Made by a program: the position numbers and the translations under genes | Notes under the pieces: generated by a model | Told to the model about the DNA's origin: nothing | What the model saw: only the letters and a program-made list of their open reading frames with translations | Databases searched by the model: none | NCBI GenBank assembly: GCA_951406725.2 | Contig: OX597826.1 | Coordinates: 26,784,001 to 26,848,000 of the forward strand | DNA length: 64,000 nucleotides | Origin: Octopus vulgaris | Taxonomy: Eukaryota | Direction: 5' to 3' | Shown here: piece after piece, positions 590 through 54,447 of the stretch | Position numbering within the stretch: position 1 is the stretch's first letter | Layout: every line of letters begins with the position of its first letter

Positions 590-1510
590 AAGAATCGTTT
601 GCACGCCGGGCAAAATTCTTCAGATGCTTTCATCCGTCTTTACGTTTTGAGTTCAAATTCTTCTGAGGCCGCCTTTGCCTTTCGTCCTTTAGGGTAGATA
701 AAATAAGTACCAACTTGGGGTCGATGTAATCGACTTACCAACTCCCATGAAATTGGTGGCTCTGTGCCAAAATTTGAAATCATAATTACAATAGTTATTA
801 AAAATAAGGCTGTGAGCAGGCAGAATTGTTAGCACGCTGGGCGAAATGCTTAGTGGTATTTTGCCTGCTGCTTCTTTCTGAGTTCAAATTCCGCCGAGGT
901 CGACTTTGCCTTTCATCCTTTCGGCGATGAAATAGGTACCAGTTACGCACTGAAGCCGACGTAATCGACTAAATTTCTTCGCCCATGCTGCACTTGTGGC
1001 AAAAATTTGAAATCATTATTATTTCTAATAATCTTTTCTACTATAAGCACAAGGCCTGAAATATTGGGGGAGGGGGTGAGTTGATCACATCGATCCCAGT
1101 ACTTGACTGCTACTTAATTTATCGACCCGAAAGATTGAAAGGCAATGCCAACTGCGGTGGAATTTGAACTCGGAACGTAGCCACGGGCGAAATACCGCTA
1201 AGCATTTTGCCCAGCGCACTAACGATTCTGCCCGCTCACCGACTTAGTTTATTATTATTACTAACAATACCAAACACTATTATAATTACTATAATTATTC
1301 GCCCTACTACTCTATTATTTTCTCGTTAAGGTTGCGAACTCGCAGAATCTATAACCCACCGGACAAAATGTTTATCGGCATTATGTTCGTCTTTAAATTT
1401 TAAGTTTGACTTCAGCCGTTGTACCTTATGTGTCGATGTAGTAAGTACCAGTTCGCCATTGAGGTCAACGTAATCGATTAACAGCTTTTCTTCAAAGTTT
1501 AGGCCTTGAT
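590..1510. mobile_element. Cluster of four SINE family B copies: about 590-785(+), 807-1015(+), 1030-1245(-), 1328-1510(+)
   Basis: Recurrent body gcagaatcgttagcacgccgggc...gagttcaaattccgccgaggtcgactttgcctttcatcctttcg...aagtaccagtt...gtcgatgtaatcgact; B-box-like GAGTTCAAATT; central part resembles the Meta/MESC-type SINE domain (from recall). Confidence 0.8.
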
Positions 1511-1824
1511 AAGTCTCCTAGATCGATCTCATCGTTCTGTCTCCGTGTACACACCTCTACTGATAAGACACATATATAATAGTTACTAAAAGGTCATATT
1601 CTCAGCGTAAACCATATTATTAAAACATGTCTTAATTCATTGTGCCAATGTACACCTCAACATGCTCATCATTTTATTCGAAGTAACATCCTGTTAACCA
1701 CATTGATCCCAACCCATCAACATGTATCATCGGCGGACATTTTCGCAAAAATTGATCTTCAATATGAACATACTGTCAAAGTCGTATATATCTGTATATG
1801 CATATGTATGTATGTATATATATG

Positions 1825-1904
<80 letters not shown>

Positions 1905-1957
1905 TGTGTGTGTATGTATGTATATATATATACTCTCTCTTTTCACTCACTCTCTTT

Positions 1958-2155
1958 ATTCTTTTACTTGTAACAGTCATTTGACTGTGGCCATGCTGGA
2001 GCACCGCCTTTAGCAAATCGACCCCAGGACTTATTCTTTGGAAGCCTAGTACTTATTCTATCGGTCTATTTTGCCGAACCGCTAAGTTACGGGGACGTAA
2101 ACACACCAGCATCGGTTGTCAAGTGATGTTGGGAGGACAAACGCAGTCACACAAA

Positions 2156-2206
<51 letters not shown>

Positions 2207-2390
2207 GTATGTATATCTATACACACGACAGACTTCTTTCAGTTTCCGTCTACCAGATCCACTCACAAGGCTTTGGTCGGCCCGAGGCTATAGTAAAAGA
2301 CACTTGCCCAAGGTGCCACGCAGTGGGACTGAACCCGGGATCATGTGGTTGGTAAGCAAGCTACTTACCACACATTCACTCCTACGCCTA
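1958..2390 (-). mobile_element. tRNA-derived SINE family A, near full length, with internal (TA)n(TG)n
   Basis: Reverse complement of 22448-22915; tRNA-like head ggcgtaggagtg...ccgggttcagtccc; CORE-like ccttgggcaagt. Confidence 0.85.
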
Positions 2391-3284
2391 TGTGTATATG
2401 TGTATATATATATATACACATATACACATAACTGCAGAGAGACAGTTACAGAGAGTAACGCAAGTTTTATTTTTTATTTTTTTATTTTTTTGAATAGTGA
2501 ACTGCGCATACATCAGTATCAGTCTGTCTAGTTCTTGCATTATATAGCAAAGACAGATTCAAACCAGCTGTACTTGTATAACATTCCGTATTGCCTAAAC
2601 GACCGAAGGGATGTTTAGATCCTTCAATGGTGTGTATTTAGAAAAAAACGAACATGTTGTTGCTGATGTTGTGAATTACAAATTGAGAACCCACCTAAAA
2701 TACATAGGCATGGAATGTACATGGTTTATTCTAAGAAGGGACATTCTAATTAGTAAGACAGATATCGAAACTCTTTACTTTACAAACATGACGGAGAGGA
2801 AATTGATACTTTACAATAGAGAGTAGAATACCGGTAATTTTTCTCGCGAAGCAGCAGTGGTTAATGCTACGGAGTTGGCATTACTCTGAACCAAAGTGGT
2901 ACTAAGTAACAATGGCTCCATATTTATTTTTAATACCTTCCGAAATATTCAAATGTAAATATTTTAGTCACTATTGTGTATCTCACACGAGTACCTTTCC
3001 CTTTTTTTACGATAATAGTGTGTTCATAATATTGTTGACTCACTGGCGTAGGATATTCCAGTACCTAGTTGTTGTGACATGTATTTAGTTAGCCAGATGC
3101 ATCGGGACTTTTGAGCACAAACATGGATTTAGTTTATAAATTCAGCGAACACAACACTTTGCTGATCAGTGCTTATATATTCCAATTAATAAATACGTCG
3201 TTATTTGCCCTGTGTACAGCAAAATCTGAAGCCATGCTCTGCATATCTATTCTTAACAGAAGTGTGTATCTTATACTCTCTCTT

Positions 3285-3485
3285 TACTCATTTATTTGTT
3301 TCAGTTATATGACTGTGGCTATGCTGGGGCACCGCCTTTAGTCGAGCAAATTGACCCTAGGACATATACTTTGTAAGCCTATTACATATTTTATCGGCTC
3401 TTTTGCCGAACCGCTAACCAGCATCGGTTATCAAGCGATGTTGGGGGGACTAACACAGACACACAAACCGCATACACACACATAC

Positions 3486-3568
<83 letters not shown>

Positions 3569-3731
3569 ACGGGCTTCTTTCAGTTCCCGTCTACCAAGTC
3601 CACTCACAAGGCTTTGGTTGTTCCGAGGCTATAATAGAAGACACTTGCCCAAAGTGCCACGCAGTAGGACTGAACCAGGAACCACGTGGTTGGTAAGCAA
3701 GCTACTTACCACAGAGTCACTCCTGTGCCTA
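3285..3731 (-). mobile_element. SINE family A copy
   Basis: Same head, body and tail as 1958-2390. Confidence 0.85.
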
Positions 3732-4139
3732 TGCAAATAAACCAGCTAAACTAGATAGACGAGACTTACAGGAAAATCACACAACGTCAGAAATATCAGT
3801 ACAATACTTCAGCAATAGCTGTGAATAACTGTGTGTTGGACGCATTTCGCGATACAATTTCAGAAGTTAACCAATAGACTTCAAAAGATCGGAATTTGGT
3901 TAAAATATAAATATTATGGTGGGAAACTAAAAATAAAGTCAGCAGTAGTGGACATTTTCAGTTGAAGAACTTTAAATGATCAAGGTAGCCATTTAGTTGA
4001 GTTTCATGAATAAGATACAATTTTCATTCCTTTTAAATGTCGCATGTGAAATTCTAGAGAACTTTGCATTTGGATTTCTTTTAATTGCCGGATTCTTAAA
4101 GATATAGATTCTTTAAAAAATTTGAAATATAGATTCTTT

Positions 4140-13216: not shown

Positions 13217-13260
<44 letters not shown>

Positions 13261-13329
13261 ATTTAGAGATAGTATTCCCCTTCAACACATCATATAAAAG
13301 AATTTTAATTTAATACTACTAATTTTTCT

Positions 13330-13422
13330 GCTACACGTGTTTCTTGTGGTTCATTTTACGGTTCCTTAAGCACGCAGTGTTTTATAGGAACCTTTCTTAA
13401 AATATAACCCCAATCATCAGGC
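13330..13422 (-). ncRNA. Type I hammerhead ribozyme motif, core intact, stem I weak
   Basis: Reverse complement: gc-CTGATGA-ttg..long hairpin..caa-GAAA-cacgtg-TA-gc; palindromic stem III; GUA triplet. Confidence 0.6.
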
Positions 13423-13624
13423 TTCTAAATAACTTTATCATAGTTCGATACCAAATCTCTAATAACATATATATTTCCTCATAGAGAATAATTTGAACCC
13501 CTGTGATGCCGGAATTGTTATTCCCTAATATATATATATATTTATATATATATATATAAATATAAATAGTAATGCAATACGAGAGTATTGCTTTCCAGTA
13601 AAGAATAGCCCGTGAGGGAAAATT

Positions 13625-13998
13625 ATACATAGAAGTAAATATATGGTACAACGAAGTACCGATATTTACTGGAAAATAGCGAACGTAATAAATACGACGC
13701 TAATGTATAGCTTCACCGCGTATGTACAAACTTGAAAAAATTGTTGGCTGATGAAGACAAATCAAGTATATGTGTGCAGACATATCTTGAAAAATCTGAA
13801 ACCGGTACCACATTATCCCTTTCTATGTATTTCATATTTCAGATGTTCTCCCTGGAGGTAAGACAATTTTTTTCAAGTTTGTTGCACACACGCATTTTTG
13901 CTAGTACATACGCGGTGAAGCTATACATTAGCGTCGTATTTATTACGTTCGTATTTTCCAGTAAATATCGGTACTTCGTTGTACCATATATTTACTTC

Positions 13999-14005
<7 letters not shown>
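13625..14005 (+). mobile_element. Penelope-like fold-back unit with inverted terminal copy (13625-13744 vs 13863-14005) flanking a hammerhead
   Basis: About 100 bp near-perfect inverted repeat, ending in (TA)n. Confidence 0.7.
13745..13810 (+). ncRNA. Type I hammerhead ribozyme motif, core intact
   Basis: tgg-CTGATGA-aga..(tcaag/cttga, atatgt/acatat hairpin)..tct-GAAA-ccgg-TA-cca. Confidence 0.75.
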
Positions 14006-14037
<32 letters not shown>

Positions 14038-14233
14038 ATATATACATTAAATAACAAGGGTAGAAATTGATATTAATCAATTAAAACCAGTGGTTTACCA
14101 TATTTCAAAAAAGTGTCAGAGTGAAGACATTTAAAAAATACACCCAAATATAAATTATAGAACTTTATACATGCTCGATTTCGGTTAAGCGTACTGTATC
14201 TAGTTCTGGAAATTGTGCTTTGTAAGCGACAGA

Positions 14234-14309
14234 CTACACTGATGATCTTGCAGATGTCTGTTTGTTTTATATACGTAGACATTAACAAGTGAAACCAACC
14301 GGTACGTAG
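14234..14309 (+). ncRNA. Type I hammerhead ribozyme motif, core intact
   Basis: ctaca-CTGATGA-t-cttg..atgtct/agacat..caag-t-GAAA-cc aacc gg-TA-cgtag; one mismatch closing stem I. Confidence 0.75.
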
Positions 14310-14485
14310 GTATTCGTTTTTAATTTCGTATATTTTCATTTGTCTTGCTCATTTTTACAGTTTGGCGTTTTGCTGAGATTTTTCTTGAGAACACATTCTT
14401 CGTGGTAATGGTATTTGACGTCTACGTTTAGCATATTAGGTGTCCACTTTAGTAGTCATTCCTCTTAATTCTTATATATATATAT

Positions 14486-15012
14486 ACTGTTTAGCGGTTT
14501 GAGTTTGGCTGCTCTTTCTGGTGAGTTGAATGGTCTATCAAGGCCATTCCTTAATATTGTTGAATGTCTATTATGTAGTATGTTGACTATTTTTTCTTTC
14601 TCACTAGACCGATGGTGGCGAAAAATTTTTCTTGAATCTTTTGCTACCCTGATATTGATTAATTAATGATTTTTTGGCTAATTCTGAAATTAAATCAGCA
14701 GTTTATATTGCTGCTGAGAAATTGGCGCGGTGACGGTAGATTTTGAAAATTTAGAATATATATACTCGAGGCGTCGCTGCTATCGCCTCGTGGATATATA
14801 TTTCCCTGGCTTCTTTACTGACGAGACAGGCCAGTGGTAAATAGATTTAATTTAGTTAAATTGGTTTCCCAATATGTCTGTCGAAAATATGCATAGTCCA
14901 GAGATGATAAGGGTAAATGTTTTTATTTTCCTTTGGTTTCTGAATTACAACTGTTTAGCAGTTTGAGTTTGGCTGCTCTTTCTGGTGAGTTGAATGGTCT
15001 ATCAAGGCCATT
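14486..15012 (+). mobile_element. Retrozyme-like non-autonomous unit: direct repeat with 464-nt period enclosing a hammerhead (14812-14904)
   Basis: actgtttagc.gtttgagtttggctgctctttctggtgagttgaatggtctatcaaggccatt at 14486 and 14950; between them CTGACGA-gacag...ctgtc-GAAA-atatgcatag-TC-cagaga. Confidence 0.65.
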
Positions 15013-15138
15013 ACGGATAATTCGAAAGATAACCGATACCTGGGTAGCAAACTCACAACAAAAAAGGCACGGTTGAAGTTACGACCATAGGGCATAAAAT
15101 CCGTGCCTTAGTGCGGAAATTTGAAGTTTTATATATTA

Positions 15139-15262
15139 AGTATAGGAAAGAATGGAGCTGAACGAAGATTTAACAAAATTCCTTTATTTTATTTCGAAAC
15201 ATATGTCGAAAATAAAATAAAGGAATTTTGTTAAATCTTCGTTCAGCTCCATTCTTTCCTAT

Positions 15263-15266
<4 letters not shown>
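15139..15266. repeat. Near-perfect palindrome (about 55-bp arms) with a hammerhead 3' half at its apex
   Basis: aagtataggaaagaatggagctgaacgaagatttaacaaaattcc / ggaattttgttaaatcttcgttcagctccattctttcctatactt; apex GAAAcatatgTC. Confidence 0.85.
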
Positions 15267-15324
<58 letters not shown>

Positions 15325-15527
15325 TATGTATAATCAGCCTGCGGTGAGTCTGTGCATTCGTTTTCCCTTCCTTCAGTTTCTGCTTGTAATCAAGGTAAAA
15401 AATAGATTTGCAGGGATTTGAAAGGGATTTTATTACACGCACATGTATAGGGACAGTTGAGTACACATGAATGCATATGAGTATTTATATATGTGTGTGT
15501 GCGTGTGTGTGTCTGAGTGTGTGTGCA

Positions 15528-15565
<38 letters not shown>

Positions 15566-15592
15566 TAGATATATTTATATATCTATATATAC

Positions 15593-15637
<45 letters not shown>

Positions 15638-15699
15638 TATGTATATATGTATGCATGTGCATATATGAGTATATATATATTTATAAGTATATGTGCATA

Positions 15700-15730
<31 letters not shown>

Positions 15731-15903
15731 AGGGAGCATAACTCCAAACATTATCTTTAATTTATATTTTATATATATACATATATACATATGCATATAT
15801 CTATCTATGTATCTTTCTAGCTAACTATATATTTATTAAAATTTTATGTATTGATTAAGTCTTTCCTTGTTTGTTTTACAAAATAGTGGTCTTGTCTCTA
15901 ATA

Positions 15904-15979
<76 letters not shown>

Positions 15980-15983
15980 TATA

Positions 15984-16188
15984 AAATATGAATTAGAGAT
16001 AAAACCACTATTAGGCAACTCAAACAGTGATAGACATAAACCAATACGTAATTAACAAATAATATAAATATAATTAATATATTATATACTATATTAATAA
16101 TGTTTATATTATTTCATACTTATGTATTGGTTTATGTCTATCACTGTTTGAGTTGCGTAATAGTGGTTTTATCTTTAATTCATATTTT
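15984..16188. repeat. Inverted repeat next to (TA)n, Penelope-like terminus fold-back
   Basis: gataaaaccactatta.gcaactcaaacagtgatagacataaaccaatac and its reverse complement at about 16125-16174. Confidence 0.75.
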
Positions 16189-16265
16189 GTATATTTAATC
16201 TTAAATCAAACTTCTTCCCTGTAAGTTTGGAGCCATACTCCCTAATATTATTATTATATACATAT

Positions 16266-18214: not shown

Positions 18215-18222
<8 letters not shown>

Positions 18223-18860
18223 TTAATAAGGGTGAGAGAATTAGATACTAATTTAATAGTATATATAGTGGCCTAGTGCTACGAGAAACCTGGATTATTA
18301 TAATATTTTATAACATATTATAATATTTTCACAAAATAAATATAAGAGAGTGGTCACTATATTATCACACGGACAGGGCAAATAAAAAATAACAAAAATA
18401 CAGATTATTTTGGGACAATTGTTTCGCTATAATGAATTAAATGTAATATTACTTACAATAATCCATTTGTAGCTCGTCAGCCAAGACTATGGATGAAATC
18501 CACTCAATCACACGCCAGATTTTACCATAACGATAAATACGCGTGTGGTTCAATTGATTACATCCGACGTTATAATTCAAATGCCCCAACCAACAGCGCG
18601 CCAAACTCTCACGGAAAACAAATACAGCATTTAGAAATAAATGCAGCATAATTATAATTAATTAATAAGGGTGAGAGAATTAGATACTAATTTAATAGTA
18701 TATTTATTCCACACCAAGTGGCCTAGTGCTACGAGAAACCTGGATTATTATAATATTTTATAACATATTATAATATTTTCACAAAATAAATATAAGAGAG
18801 TGGTCACTATATTAAAATAATCTGTATTTTTGTTATTTTTTATTTGCCCTGTCCGTGTGA
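18215..18860 (-). mobile_element. Retrozyme-like/Penelope-derived unit: about 1.45 copies of a 439-nt monomer with a short terminal inversion
   Basis: Direct repeat at 18215 and 18654; inverted 47-nt block at 18814-18860; hammerhead in between; adjoins (TA)n. Confidence 0.75.
18410..18484 (-). ncRNA. Type I hammerhead ribozyme, fully canonical core
   Basis: Reverse complement: ttgg-CTGACGA-gcta...tagc-GAAA-caattg-TC-ccaa; G10.1-C11.1 pair, GUC triplet, palindromic stem III. Confidence 0.85.
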
Positions 18861-26459: not shown

Positions 26460-27757
26460 TGGCTGTCCCCTCGTTATCGAGTATGGCCATTGCACGAAGC
26501 TTAACCGTTACTGGTGCTGTGATCGAATGTGACTTTTTAGCCCAGCTAAAGATCTACAATGTCTTGTACAAAATTGACAACTAAAACCTTTACTGGTAAT
26601 AGCCGGCTGTAGTTGTAACTGGGCTTCTTGTACCTTTGTATGTCGTTTAAGTCCTCCTGCCGAATTACACTCTCTTCCACATGCCCGACAGATATGATTA
26701 GTATGGTGTGCTACACCACCACCAGTGGCCAGGTTGTCACTCATCTGTCTCGTTTTATGACTACGAAGATGACTCATGAGTCCAGCTTTACTGAGGCACA
26801 GACATTGCATGTCAGAATCAAAGGAAGACCCTTCCCTTCTGGAAGTGTAACAGCGATGCCCTTCCTGACATCCCTCCTTACTTTCTCATGTGCAACTCGA
26901 GATTTCTCAAAAGTGGCTGTCCCCTCATGCACAATCCTTCTCCACCTGCTACGACCAATAGCTATGCCTTCCCATGTGTCAGGAGAGATGCAAGCATCTC
27001 TTAAGGAAGCCTTCAGTAAGTCCTTATACCTCTTTTTTGGTTTATGTGGAGGTCGTTCTCCTTTAGCTAACTCTCCATAAAAGAGTTGTTTTGGCATCCT
27101 TGAATCCTTCATTCTGACCTGATGACTACTCCATTTGAGCCTTTGCTTTAACACAAGAGCTTCTATACTTTCACACCGAGAGCCTTCCAATATTTCAAGA
27201 TCACTGATGCGGTCCTTCCACTTAATGCCATAGATCCGTCTGAGGCACATCTGATGGAAACGTTCCGGTTGTTTAAGGTGGTATCGATATGTGACCCACG
27301 TCTCGCAGGCATAGAGAAGAGAAGGGAGCACACATGCCTTGTACACCTTTATCTTTGTCTTTCTGCGTATGTCTCGCCGACTCCAGAGGCGCTTTTCTAG
27401 CCTTCCGAAAGCAACACTTTCTTTCCTAATTCTAAATGGAATTTCATCATCCACATTGCCATATCTATTAATAGTGCTTCCCAGGTAGACAAACTGATCA
27501 ACTACATCAAGTCGTTTACCATTCACATAGATATTTGGTACACTATACTGCTTACCAGGGGCAGGTTGATGCATGACAACAGTTTTCTTGAGATTGACTG
27601 TCAATCCTAAGGCAGTGCAAGCATCAGAGAATGCATTCAAAATGTGTTGCATATCAATCTCTGTGTGTGCTACTAGCTCACAATCATCTGCATACAAAAG
27701 GTCTCTTATGATAGAGGTAAATATCTTTGTTTTTGCAGCAAATCGCCTGATATTTGT
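26460..27757 (-). pseudogene. RTE LINE 3' segment: RT from just before YADD to C-terminus, three C2H2-like zinc fingers, short 3' UTR and (TATG)n tail
   Basis: ORF 26774-27769 contains LLYADDCEL, LGLTVNLKKT, FVYLGS, LLYACETW; frameshifted continuation 26508-26810 has CLSKAGLMSHLRSH, CRACGRECNSAGGLKRH and CQFCTRHCRSLAGLKSHIRSQH; 3' hairpin ctcgataacgag. Confidence 0.92.
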
Positions 27758-28321
27758 CAGCAAAGCCACAGGAAAAGGAAGTGTTGCATAGGGACCTCAA
27801 GGATGTAAAATCATGTGTGAGACAAAAGCTCTCTCAGATGAGGGATGCGTGGTGGAGTACCAAGGGTGATGAGATACATGCGGCATCAGATTCCAATAAC
27901 ACAAAGCTGTTGTATGGTCTCTTGCGAGAAATTTATGGACCGACGTCGTCCCTGATGACACCACTTCGAAGCTGGGATAGTAAAGAACTTCATGATTCAC
28001 AAGGAATTCTGCGAAGGTGGCAAGAACACTTTGATGAACTTTTGAATCAGCAGTCTGTAGTTAGTGAGGATGTTCTCAATCTCATCCCTGGATTGCCTGT
28101 GAAGGCAGCACTCGCGGAACAACCAAAGTTGGAAGAAGTTGCAATGGCTGTCTCAATGTTGAATAATGGGAAGTCTACGGGTATGGATGGCATACATGCG
28201 GAGTTGTTACAGCATGGTGGTAAGAAACTTCTGCAGAAACTTCACTCTTTGTTTGGTAAGATATGGACTAGTGAATCTGTACCTGAGGACTGGAGAGATG
28301 CAGTAATGGTGGTCCTGTATA
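27757..28321 (+). pseudogene. RTE LINE middle segment (EN-RT linker to RT N-terminus)
   Basis: RRWQEHFDELLN, NNGKSTGMDGIHAELL, VPEDWRDAVMVVLY; breaks off just before the expected K..G..NYR motif. Confidence 0.9.
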
Positions 28322-30150
28322 TCAGGTCACTTTCGGGTGCTACTGGTAACATGTAACCCAGTGCAACCTTATGTCAGGTCACTTTCGAGTGCTACTGGTA
28401 ACATGTAACCCAGTGCAACCTGTTGCATGGTCGGGTCGTCGGCGACTAAACCGGCAACCCCACCAAGCTTGCTTGGTTTATTGGACACCCTGCGGGATGA
28501 AAAACAAAACCCGTCAAAGGGCGGAGGATCTCTTGAGAGTCAACGGCCATCCAATAAATGAGTAATTTTTTTTTAAGGCTTAAGTCTGTATGATGCGCGG
28601 GAACACAGAAATAATCGGACTGAATACCCGATCGCGCGGTTAAACCATTGGGAGTGAAGGACTCATAGCCTTTGTTAGGGCATCCTTCTAGGAGAAGGTA
28701 ACTCAGGTAACTGGGATAACACCGACATAAAACCTGCGGCTCAGTGGTTACCGATAATGTTGACTTGTTCTTCTTTTCGGATTATGGCTGCTGTTGCTTA
28801 GTGAGTGGGATTGACTCAGTGCACAGCCTTTCCTCACTTAAAAAAATCTTTTTGCACAGGCATTGCACGATAACTACATTGGATTGATTAAATTGATTAA
28901 CTAATTCATGATTGTTGATAGTGCTGTGAGTCTCAAATGAATGGCTGGCTGTTGCCTTAAAAAGCAAAAAATCAATGATGTACCAAAACAGTATAAAAAT
29001 AAATGGCAGTAAGGACTCTGGAATCACATCAGCTGAAAGAGTCTGGCCCGGCAGGGTCTCCAGAGCATCAGAGTCTGAACCCGGCCGTCATCATGCTACT
29101 GTGACAGAACCGAAGAAAATAGTGAATATTGGCTGTTGGAATGTACGGATACTGCTTGACCGCAAGTCCTCCGAATGTCCTGAAAGAAGGACTGCGCTTG
29201 TTGCGAAGGAGCTTCAACGCTATGATCGTGACGTCGTTGCTTTATCTGAGACGAGATTACCTGGAGGTGGTCATCTTACAAAATCTTGTGGAAAATATAC
29301 ATTCTTTTGGAAAGGGAGGAATGAAGAGTTTAGAGGAGAAGCTGGAGTGGCATTTGCCGTTAAGACTACTCTTGTGGACAAGTTGGAAGAATTCCCAATC
29401 GGAATTAACGAGCGTCTTATGTCCATGAGAATTCCTTTGGCTAGAGAAAATTATATGACCTTGGCGAGTGTGTATGCTCCAACTATGTGCTATACTGATG
29501 ACGAAAAGATTTTCTTTCTACCATGCTTTGAAGGGCATTATAAGAAATATCCCTCGGGCAGACAAAGTCATCGTACTGGGTGACTTTAATGCTAGAGTTG
29601 GTAGGGATTTTAACACATGGACTGTGATTGGAAAGCATGGGGTGGGGAAGTGTAATAGTAATGGCATGCTTTTGCTGCAGATGTGTGAGGAGCTGAGTCT
29701 GTGTGTTACCAATACTATGTTTCAACAAAAGAATAAGCTTAAGACTACATGGATGCACCCTGCATCTAACGAATGGCATATTCTGGATTACATCCTAGTT
29801 AGGGTGCGTGACAGACAGGATGTGCAGTGTGTTCGTGTTCTTCGTGGAGCTGAGTGTGGGACTGACCACCGCCTAGTACGTGCAAAAGTGAAATTAGTCA
29901 CAAAACGTAAACTCCGAGCTGCAGAGATTACCCTGCCTAAAAGACTGAATGTTGATCGTCTTAGGTATAATAGTGTGAAGAGAACTTTACGAGAGGAAAT
30001 GAATGCTGCAGATATTGGGGTGGATTGGCCGACCCTTAAAAAGTCAGTTTATGATATAGGCAAGAAAGTTCTGGGATTGATACAAAGAAAGCATCAGGAT
30101 TGGTTCAAAGAAAATGATGAACATATAGATGATTTATTGGCGGATAAAAG
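28322..30150 (+). pseudogene. RTE LINE 5' segment: 5' UTR plus APE endonuclease, frameshifted near 29510
   Basis: IGCWNVR, ALSETR, GVAFAV, SVYAPT, LGDFNARVG, ILDYIL, TDHRLV, HQDWF; the 5' UTR has tagggca..ctaggagaaggtaactc, which I recall as RTE-typical; 52-nt tandem duplication at the start. Confidence 0.92.
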
Positions 30151-30281
30151 ACATACATATATACATACATACATATATACATACATACATTAATACATAC
30201 ATACATACATACACACATATGTCTAGACATACATACATACATACACACGTATGTCTAGACATACAACTATGTGTTTGAGAA

Positions 30282-54388: not shown

Positions 54389-54447
54389 ATTCCACTGATG
54401 AAGGCAGAGCATTTCTTATGCAGAGCCAGAAATCCGGGATCTGGAAT
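54389..54447 (+). ncRNA. Type I hammerhead ribozyme motif, core intact
   Basis: attcca-CTGATGA-a-ggc aga gcat..atgc aga gcc-a-GAAA-tcc g gga-TC-tggaat; 6-bp stem I; AUC triplet. Confidence 0.8.

What the first reader, a model, noticed from the sequence alone, without database searches (positions are those of the whole stretch)
13330..15266. Ribozyme hotspot: four different hammerheads plus a half-motif in under 2 kb
Motifs at 13330-13422(-), 13745-13810(+), 14234-14309(+) and 14812-14904(+), plus a GAAA-catatg-TC half at about 15196, have unrelated stem sequences and are separated by short (TA)n runs. This suggests serial independent insertions into one TA target that each insertion regenerates. 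A transcript across the region on either strand would contain potential self-cleavage sites.
Basis: partly seen in the sequence, partly recalled or inferred. Interest (0 to 1): 0.75.

Follow-up and report, generated by a model that had tools for sequence, protein, structure and literature searches.

The report
Penelope retroelement pile-up in TA repeat
This 2-kb stretch is a chain of five unrelated, cut-short copies of Penelope-like jumping genes and their likely non-coding hitch-hikers, each carrying its family's predicted self-cutting hammerhead RNA, that likely landed one after another in one TA repeat; it is an extreme case of something common in this genome rather than a ribozyme device of its own.

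Summary
Observation confirmed: four type I hammerhead motifs and one remnant lie at the stated places. The block is five separate insertions (F1-F5) from five dispersed families; every base is family sequence or (TA)n, and the two junctions I tested occur once in the genome. F1 and F5 are 3' ends of Penelope-like elements (PLEs) resembling the Hydra clade; F5 has copies with open 896-904 aa RT-endonuclease frames. F2-F4 are 426-530 nt tandem units (retrozyme-like). Inverted arms, tails and (TA)n targets are described PLE hallmarks. Hammerheads occur about once per 32 kb genome-wide and are about 4-fold enriched beside other insertions, so serial insertion is supported. Corrections: F4/F5 are fused without TA; the half-motif is a truncated F5 copy; the window's F3 and F4 motifs carry pairing defects. 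Two leads go beyond the papers I read: F5 lacks the cysteine linker credited with (TA)n targeting yet still targets (TA)n, and F5 5' ends peak at the ribozyme cut (suggestive, confounded by microhomology). The scan noted similar PLE-mobilised hammerhead families earlier elsewhere in this genome. Cleavage and expression are untested.

The parts
13223..13257 (.). (TA)n run, left edge of the block
13258..13456 (-). F1 forward arm: 5'-truncated 3' end (pLTR) of a Hydra-like PLE, ending at the main end
   Evidence: full but broken element L096; about 92% to the closest copies fetched
13332..13420 (-). F1 type I hammerhead; palindromic helix III ACACGUGU; helix I only 2 bp; predicted cut after 13332
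13455..13527 (+). F1 inverted arm, almost only the tail
13528..13561 (.). imperfect (TA)n run between F1 and F2
13562..13741 (-). F2 inverted arm with tail; arms identical at 103 of 104 positions
13742..14000 (+). F2 forward arm; family is a 426-nt tandem non-coding unit, young (98% to other copies)
13748..13807 (+). F2 type I hammerhead, palindromic helix III ACCGGU, matches its family; predicted cut after 13807
14001..14045 (.). imperfect (TA)n run between F2 and F3
14046..14111 (-). F3 inverted arm (tail only)
14117..14472 (+). F3 forward arm; family is a ~530-nt tandem non-coding unit, ~90% to other copies
14239..14304 (+). F3 hammerhead; first pair of helix I is A.C and helix III is altered relative to best-paired family copies; predicted cut after 14304
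14473..14486 (.). (TA)7 between F3 and F4
14486..15012 (+). F4 partial tandem (1.1 units, 464-nt period here, 472 in the family reference); 3' end lost
14818..14898 (+). F4 hammerhead; two family pairs next to the core are broken in this copy (helix I G-C to A.C; helix III C-G to A.G); predicted cut after 14898
15010..15194 (-). F5 inverted arm with tail; outer ~20 nt lost; fused to F4 through the 3-nt overlap ATT
   Evidence: (table 7)
15193..15266 (+). F5 forward arm, 5'-truncated inside the hammerhead; with the inverted arm it makes a 65-bp hairpin (64 of 65 paired)
   Evidence: 98.6% to full element L136
15196..15207 (+). the 'half-motif': GAAA, helix III and cut site of the F5 hammerhead; intact family copies have the full motif with a 6-bp helix I
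15267..15332 (.). (TA)n run, right edge of the block
15727..16260 (.). two further fold-back fragments (15727-15900, 15985-16260) related to another hammerhead-bearing family, without the ribozyme part, each between TA runs
   Evidence: (15830-15937 is 98% like L087/L204)

Best explanation
The block is a chain of five 5'-truncated copies from five dispersed hammerhead-bearing families, likely laid down one after another by Penelope-like target-primed reverse transcription into one (TA)n repeat. Shown: F1 and F5 are the 3' ends of RT/GIY-YIG elements, F2-F4 are short tandem non-coding units, each copy has PLE anatomy (inverted arm, tail on one arm), and ends abut (TA)n. Inferred mechanism: the PLE protein nicks both strands of a TA run and primes one cDNA from each strand, one at the internal AU-rich 'main end' and one at the tail end; the two truncated cDNAs are joined head to head through short microhomologies; TA is left on both sides, so the site stays a target, and later insertions (F2, F5, the youngest) entered the leftover runs. 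F2-F4 are predicted to borrow the PLE enzyme in trans. The hammerheads are passengers of the elements' 3' regions, predicted to cut only as dimers through their palindromic helix III; most genomic arms run through the ribozyme, so uncut RNA is likely the main template and cut RNA at most a minor one. A later 3-nt microhomology deletion likely fused F4 to F5.
For: Dispersed families: 797-4103 first-look candidates per unit; exact 33-34-mers occur 228 (F5) and 288 (F2) times. 0 of 2009 bases left uncovered by other-locus hits or TA. Junctions F3/F4 and F4/F5 found once each; 21 of 238 loci with a hit hold more than one window family, in varying pairs, none the five in order. Full elements: L096 (F1, broken), L136 (F5, 896-aa open frame). 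Tail on exactly one arm in 27 of 28 two-armed F5 insertions (P 3e-8 against independent choice). (TA)6 follows 87 of 97 F5 arm rows (one row a duplicate) against 4.7% of random windows. Other-family hammerheads within 600 nt of 75 anchors: 9 insertions against 2.4 expected, P 0.003; four inspected cases share one TA run. Covariation in 14 distinct F5-group hammerheads: 90.5% paired, 11 of 21 pairs with two-sided change, 0 of 500 shuffles as high. PLE hallmarks as described in PMC8557442, PMC4209133, PMC11167929.
Against: No empty or partly filled allele was seen, so one ancestral TA site and the order of events are inferred. No autonomous partner was tied to F2-F4, and their TA flanks are less regular in old copies (both ends in TA in 43 of 75 anchors, one end in 27, none in 5). 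At the background rate about 0.9 two-kb windows with four motifs are expected genome-wide with no clustering at all, so a single such site needs little special cause. The covariation rows were descriptor hits, which already demands pairing, and are related. No cleavage or strand-specific expression data. In the one PLE studied in vitro both strands used the same start sites and the start was not homologous to the target (PMC11167929), unlike the pairing inferred here.
Confidence: 0.88

Rival explanations
1. The block is one composite element (or segmental duplicate) that moved as a unit.
For: No host spacer inside it; 21 of 238 loci hold more than one of the families.
Against: F3/F4 and F4/F5 junctions are unique; units differ in age (89-98%); pairs elsewhere differ in kind and spacing. 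F1/F2 and F2/F3 junctions were not searched directly.
Confidence: 0.02
2. The inverted-repeat units (F2, F5) are Tc1/mariner-type MITEs with TA target duplications, or miRNA hairpins, and the hammerheads are incidental.
For: Near-perfect inverted arms flanked by TA; the F5 hairpin scores below threshold on many miRNA models.
Against: Arm length and junction differ from copy to copy, one arm carries a tail, tandem copies occur, and F5 continues into an RT-endonuclease frame.
Confidence: 0.02
3. The elements are PLE-derived, but the pile-up reflects a permissive, TA-rich region with several separate microsatellites and tolerated insertions, not reuse of one target.
For: (TA)8 or longer runs are frequent (457 in 600 kb) and the flanks hold more of them; about one such window is expected by chance; two more fragments lie beyond a non-element gap at 15333-15726.
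Against: No host base between F1 and F5; enrichment falls off beyond 600 nt; neighbours share one run elsewhere.
Confidence: 0.08
4. The cluster is kept as a host device that cuts a read-through transcript at several sites.
For: Three motifs lie on one strand; F2 matches its family's intact form.
Against: F3 and F4 copies have lost pairs next to the core, F5 is half, helix III of F1, F2, F4 and F5 does not fold as a monomer, and no host exon was recognised nearby (by eye).
Confidence: 0.03

Closest known systems
Hydra clade of C-terminal EN+ Penelope-like elements (Craig et al. 2021, PMC8557442; passages and section 11 read, supplements not)
   Same: F1 and F5: single ORF, RT then GIY-YIG, RxW[KL] and DKT motifs, CxxC and CxH near the end, no two-cysteine CCHH core, canonical hammerhead, (TA)n targets, tandem/inverted copies with a tail.
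   Different: Elements are 3.6-3.7 kb (Hydra generally under 3 kb); tails are 60-150 nt (30-40 described); the F5 group has no CxCX5C linker (57 of 58 long homologues have it) and an N/S-rich spacer instead; F1's linker is degenerate in the one full copy read.
Metazoan non-LTR retrozymes (Cervera and de la Pena 2020, PMC7229834, passages; Li et al. 2026 bioRxiv 10.64898/2026.07.22.740005, part 1 of 5)
   Same: F2-F4: short, AT-rich, non-coding tandem units with a type I hammerhead.
   Different: Mostly 1-1.6 units with inverted arms and tails rather than long arrays; F3 and F4 are longer than the 150-450 bp described; circular RNA untested.
PLE hammerheads with palindromic helix III that act as dimers (Cervera and de la Pena 2014, PMC4209133, part 1 of 4)
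   Same: Type I topology, short palindromic helix III, single motifs from truncated PLEs, pairs on opposite strands 100-700 bp apart.
   Different: Helix II is long here (43-70 nt between core halves).
Poseidon PAc mechanism (Frangieh et al. 2024, PMC11167929, parts 1-2 of 4)
   Same: Both strands primed, two RT start sites that delimit the tail, AT-rich target, uncut RNA as the main template.
   Different: Here the two arms of one insertion nearly always use different start sites, the main start is AU-rich like the target, and some 5' ends sit at the cut, where that paper found no RNA ends.

Membership tests
Type I hammerhead ribozyme | Core CUGANGA, GAAA, NUH in type I order | tested here: met
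   F1-F4; F5 window copy has only the 3' part, family complete
Type I hammerhead ribozyme | Helices I-III can pair | tested here: inconclusive
   Good for F2; helix I 2 bp in F1; A.C next to the core in F3 and F4, A.G in helix III of F4
Type I hammerhead ribozyme | Compensatory changes support the fold | tested here: met
   F5 group only; rows were descriptor hits; F1-F4 not tested
Type I hammerhead ribozyme | Match to an Rfam hammerhead model | tested here: not met
   long helix II and minimal helix III are the likely reason (inference)
Type I hammerhead ribozyme | Self-cleavage | not testable with these tools
   only indirect 5'-end counts
EN+ Penelope-like element (F1, F5) | One ORF with RT and C-terminal GIY-YIG nuclease | tested here: met
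   YRDD and YIG/YVG motifs in 896-904 aa frames; Pfam gives only sub-threshold GIY-YIG hits (E 0.02; none)
EN+ Penelope-like element (F1, F5) | Partial tandem or inverted 5'-truncated copy, tail at one end, hammerhead in the pLTR | tested here: met
Hydra clade | RWK-type and DKT motifs; CxxC and CxH at the end; no CCHH | tested here: met
   for F5 group; F1 N-terminal motifs, its end motifs read by eye; definition
Hydra clade | CxCX5C linker | tested here: not met
   absent in L136, L137, L139; degenerate in L096; so filed as Hydra-like, not as member
Hydra clade | Insertion into (TA)n | tested here: met
Hydra clade | Placement in the RT tree with named Hydra elements | not tested
   no named reference sequences were held
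Non-LTR retrozyme (F2-F4) | Short AT-rich non-coding tandem unit with type I hammerhead | tested here: met
   tail runs straight into the head of the next unit
Non-LTR retrozyme (F2-F4) | Two consecutive complete hammerheads | tested here: inconclusive
   not in the window; spans covering both sites in some loci, e.g. L256, L055, L058, L040
Non-LTR retrozyme (F2-F4) | Expressed as circular RNA | not testable with these tools
   only contigs available
MITE (Tc1/mariner type) | Fixed terminal inverted repeats and uniform length | tested here: not met

The most novel reading that the evidence does not exclude
This octopus carries an active, linker-less branch of Hydra-like Penelope elements that finds (TA)n without the cysteine linker thought to do so, by pairing an AU-run in its own RNA with the nicked repeat; each insertion uses both RT start sites, one per target strand; and a minority of insertions are copied from ribozyme-cut RNA, which leaves 5' ends at the cut and gives the first genomic footprint of PLE hammerhead cleavage in vivo.
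Probability: 0.3. Interest if true: 0.65.

Novelty: new member of a known kind. Interest (0 to 1): 0.38.

Why it matters
The cluster itself is known biology in an unusually dense form. Its value is as a handle on two open points named in PMC8557442: what the PLE hammerhead does and what aims PLEs at microsatellites. The genome offers many open-frame copies of a linker-less (TA)n-targeting element, hundreds of young insertions whose junctions can be counted, and non-coding families with the same footprint, which bears on the proposal that PLEs move animal retrozymes. It also suggests roughly 85,000 type I hammerheads in this genome (extrapolated from 19 in 599,700 bases); Rfam missed all such motifs in this window.

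Tried and rejected
Rfam: no hammerhead model matched. MFE folding does not single out the window motifs. Pfam on PLE pieces and homologues gave only sub-threshold hits; PDB none; a homologue search with the F1 nuclease piece found none. My first guesses of Naiad or Neptune were dropped after domain order and motifs were read. Sequencing runs: no RNA holder listed. Contigs of four DNA-type runs could not resolve locus-specific junctions because the families are high-copy, so presence/absence across individuals is open. Contigs of four runs guessed to be RNA cover the F5 hammerhead region but cannot show ends, strand or level. The idea that tandem copies never extend past the upstream cut was rejected: 2 of 11 F2, 10 of 24 F4 and 2 of 6 F3 upstream copies do. 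No pile-up at the cut in the downstream F2 copy (1 stop, ratio 1.0). A shared tail motif among F3-F5 is too weak to claim (E 0.12-0.15). Literature: no paper on octopus hammerheads in a search for both terms; the O. vulgaris repeat paper PMC13282606 (passages) has no mention of ribozyme or Hydra; (listings only) showed nothing on 5' ends at the cut or linker-less Hydra. Subscription papers, Repbase and the supplements of PMC8557442 (which may list octopus Hydra families) were not seen.

Full report
Setting. The window is G000:C13:26784001-26848000 of a 2.8-Gb animal genome. The closest named protein relative of an element found here is from Octopus sinensis (76% over 40% of the query), so the host is taken to be an octopus (inference). 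Stop-free frames near the block showed no recognisable host exon by eye.

Observation. A strict descriptor recovers two of them against 0.002 per shuffled region; a relaxed one, tuned after seeing the motifs, recovers all four and gives 0-1 hits per 600 kb of shuffled sequence. Rfam misses them. Helix III of F1, F2 and F5 is an exact palindrome and that of F4 is one in the family; these do not fold alone but self-pair at -7 to -16 kcal/mol, the dimer-type layout described in PMC4209133.

Five insertions, not one. Each unit retrieves its own dispersed family. Other-locus hits plus TA runs cover all 2009 bases of 13258-15266. The F3/F4 and F4/F5 junctions occur once in the genome. Best identities to other fetched copies differ: F2 and F5 98%, F4 94%, F1 92%, F3 90%, and the arms of F2 and F5 are 103/104 and 64/65 identical, so F2 and F5 are the youngest. 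F4 and F5 are fused through the overlap ATT with loss of both natural ends and any TA. Two more fragments of a further family lie at 15727-16260.

What the families are. F1 continues upstream into a broken ~3.7-kb element with N-terminal domain, YRDD RT, a degenerate cysteine linker and GIY-YIG-like nuclease (L096). F5 is the 3' end of a 3.6-kb element with an 896-aa open frame (L136, 98.6% to the window's forward arm); related open frames of about 899 aa are numerous among the 150 scored matches. Their motifs fit the Hydra description except for length and, in the F5 group, the missing CxCX5C linker, present in 57 of 58 homologues of 680 aa or more. In F2, F3 and F4 the tail runs directly into the head of the next unit, giving non-coding periods of about 426, 530 and 472 nt, as in non-LTR retrozymes. 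The half-motif is an F5 copy truncated inside the ribozyme and joined to its inverted arm through TTCGA; intact copies have the whole motif, and a like junction recurs at 5 other places.

Anatomy of an insertion. Copies consist of a forward and often an inverted 5'-truncated arm, with both outer ends in (TA)n. In 68 F5 insertions taken in genome order from an exact-pattern search (the 30 loci it returned, two dropped as second arms of the same insertion, plus 40 further listed places; 228 matches in all), 27 of 28 two-armed cases have the tail on exactly one arm, and (TA)6 follows 87 of 97 arm rows against 4.7% of random windows. Inverted arms, one-sided tails and microsatellite targets are described for PLEs, and the tail has been traced to two RT start sites. 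Each family has a short alternating AU stretch at its main end (read from sequence). That this stretch pairs with the nicked TA target is inference.

Is it a hotspot? Sixty fixed 10-kb stretches hold 19 motifs (16 insertions) in 599,700 bases. Four in 2 kb has Poisson probability 6e-7, about 0.9 expected over the genome. Around 75 anchor insertions, other-family motifs number 11 within 600 nt (9 insertions, 2.4 expected, P 0.003) and are not enriched further out (5 against 3.4). In four of five neighbourhoods inspected the neighbour starts in the same TA run. So chains are a general habit here and this is a long one. No empty allele could be seen.

Do the ribozymes work? Covariation supports the fold in the F5 group, with the caveat that rows were descriptor hits. 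In the window, F2 matches its family; F4 has lost two pairs beside the core and F3 one, relative to the best-paired family copies; F1 has a short helix I throughout its family. Most F5 insertions (56 of 68) extend upstream of the cut, so uncut RNA is the main template, in line with PMC11167929. But 12 of 68 end at 0 to +13 and 6 at 0/+1 (hazard ratio 8-12 against nearby positions), the top 2-nt window of 313. Against this: a second hot spot at -147 to -160 has the same 14-nt rate; four of the six exact cases have 1-5 nt microhomology in an A-rich tract and only two are clean (by eye); windows were chosen after seeing the data. F4 upstream copies show a weaker excess (9 of 24 at 0 to +25, P 0.04; best-hit loci), F2 upstream copies 3 of 11 (P 0.002), F2 downstream copies none. 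I put the cleavage reading of this peak at slightly under even odds.

Verdict. Earlier scan notes on other parts of this genome reached the same reading for other families; they are not independent support. The linker-less (TA)n targeter, the strict one-tail pairing and the 5'-end peak are the leads worth following. Papers seen: PMC8557442 passages and section 11; PMC4209133 part 1 of 4; PMC7229834 passages; PMC11167929 parts 1-2 of 4; bioRxiv 10.64898/2026.07.22.740005 part 1 of 5; PMC13282606 passages; no supplements.

Noticed in passing
window 18218-18830: Another type I hammerhead (18480->18414, minus strand, palindrome ACAAUUGU) in a partial-tandem insertion beside a TA run; family also seen in random locus L179.
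   Followed up: partly
window 54395-54441: A further type I hammerhead on the plus strand with a 5-bp helix I; a relative lies in L194.
   Followed up: partly
window 15727-16260: Two fold-back fragments between TA runs, related to a hammerhead family seen whole in L087 and L167.
   Followed up: partly
L137, L140 (G000:C1:119.5 Mb, C24:21.6 Mb): Head-to-tail arrays of a sister PLE subfamily with 899-aa open frames and three hammerheads at 3.62-kb spacing; many matches with 899-aa frames suggest current activity.
   Followed up: partly
L201-L300 (F5 insertions): In two-armed insertions the 5' ends of the two arms often lie within 10-50 nt of each other in RNA coordinates although they start 150 nt apart; fits a shared template end or a fold-back step.
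   Followed up: no
L002-L200: At least 15 other hammerhead families with different, mostly palindromic helix III sequences appear in flanks and random stretches.
   Followed up: no
window 26500-30200: Pieces of a LINE (endonuclease and RT frames on both strands, RTE-like by recollection).
   Followed up: no
window 14620-14665, 15030-15051, 14064-14086: Weak shared motif near the tail ends of F3, F4 and F5 (CTACCC followed by an AT-rich stretch), E 0.12-0.15; possible protein-binding signal.
   Followed up: partly
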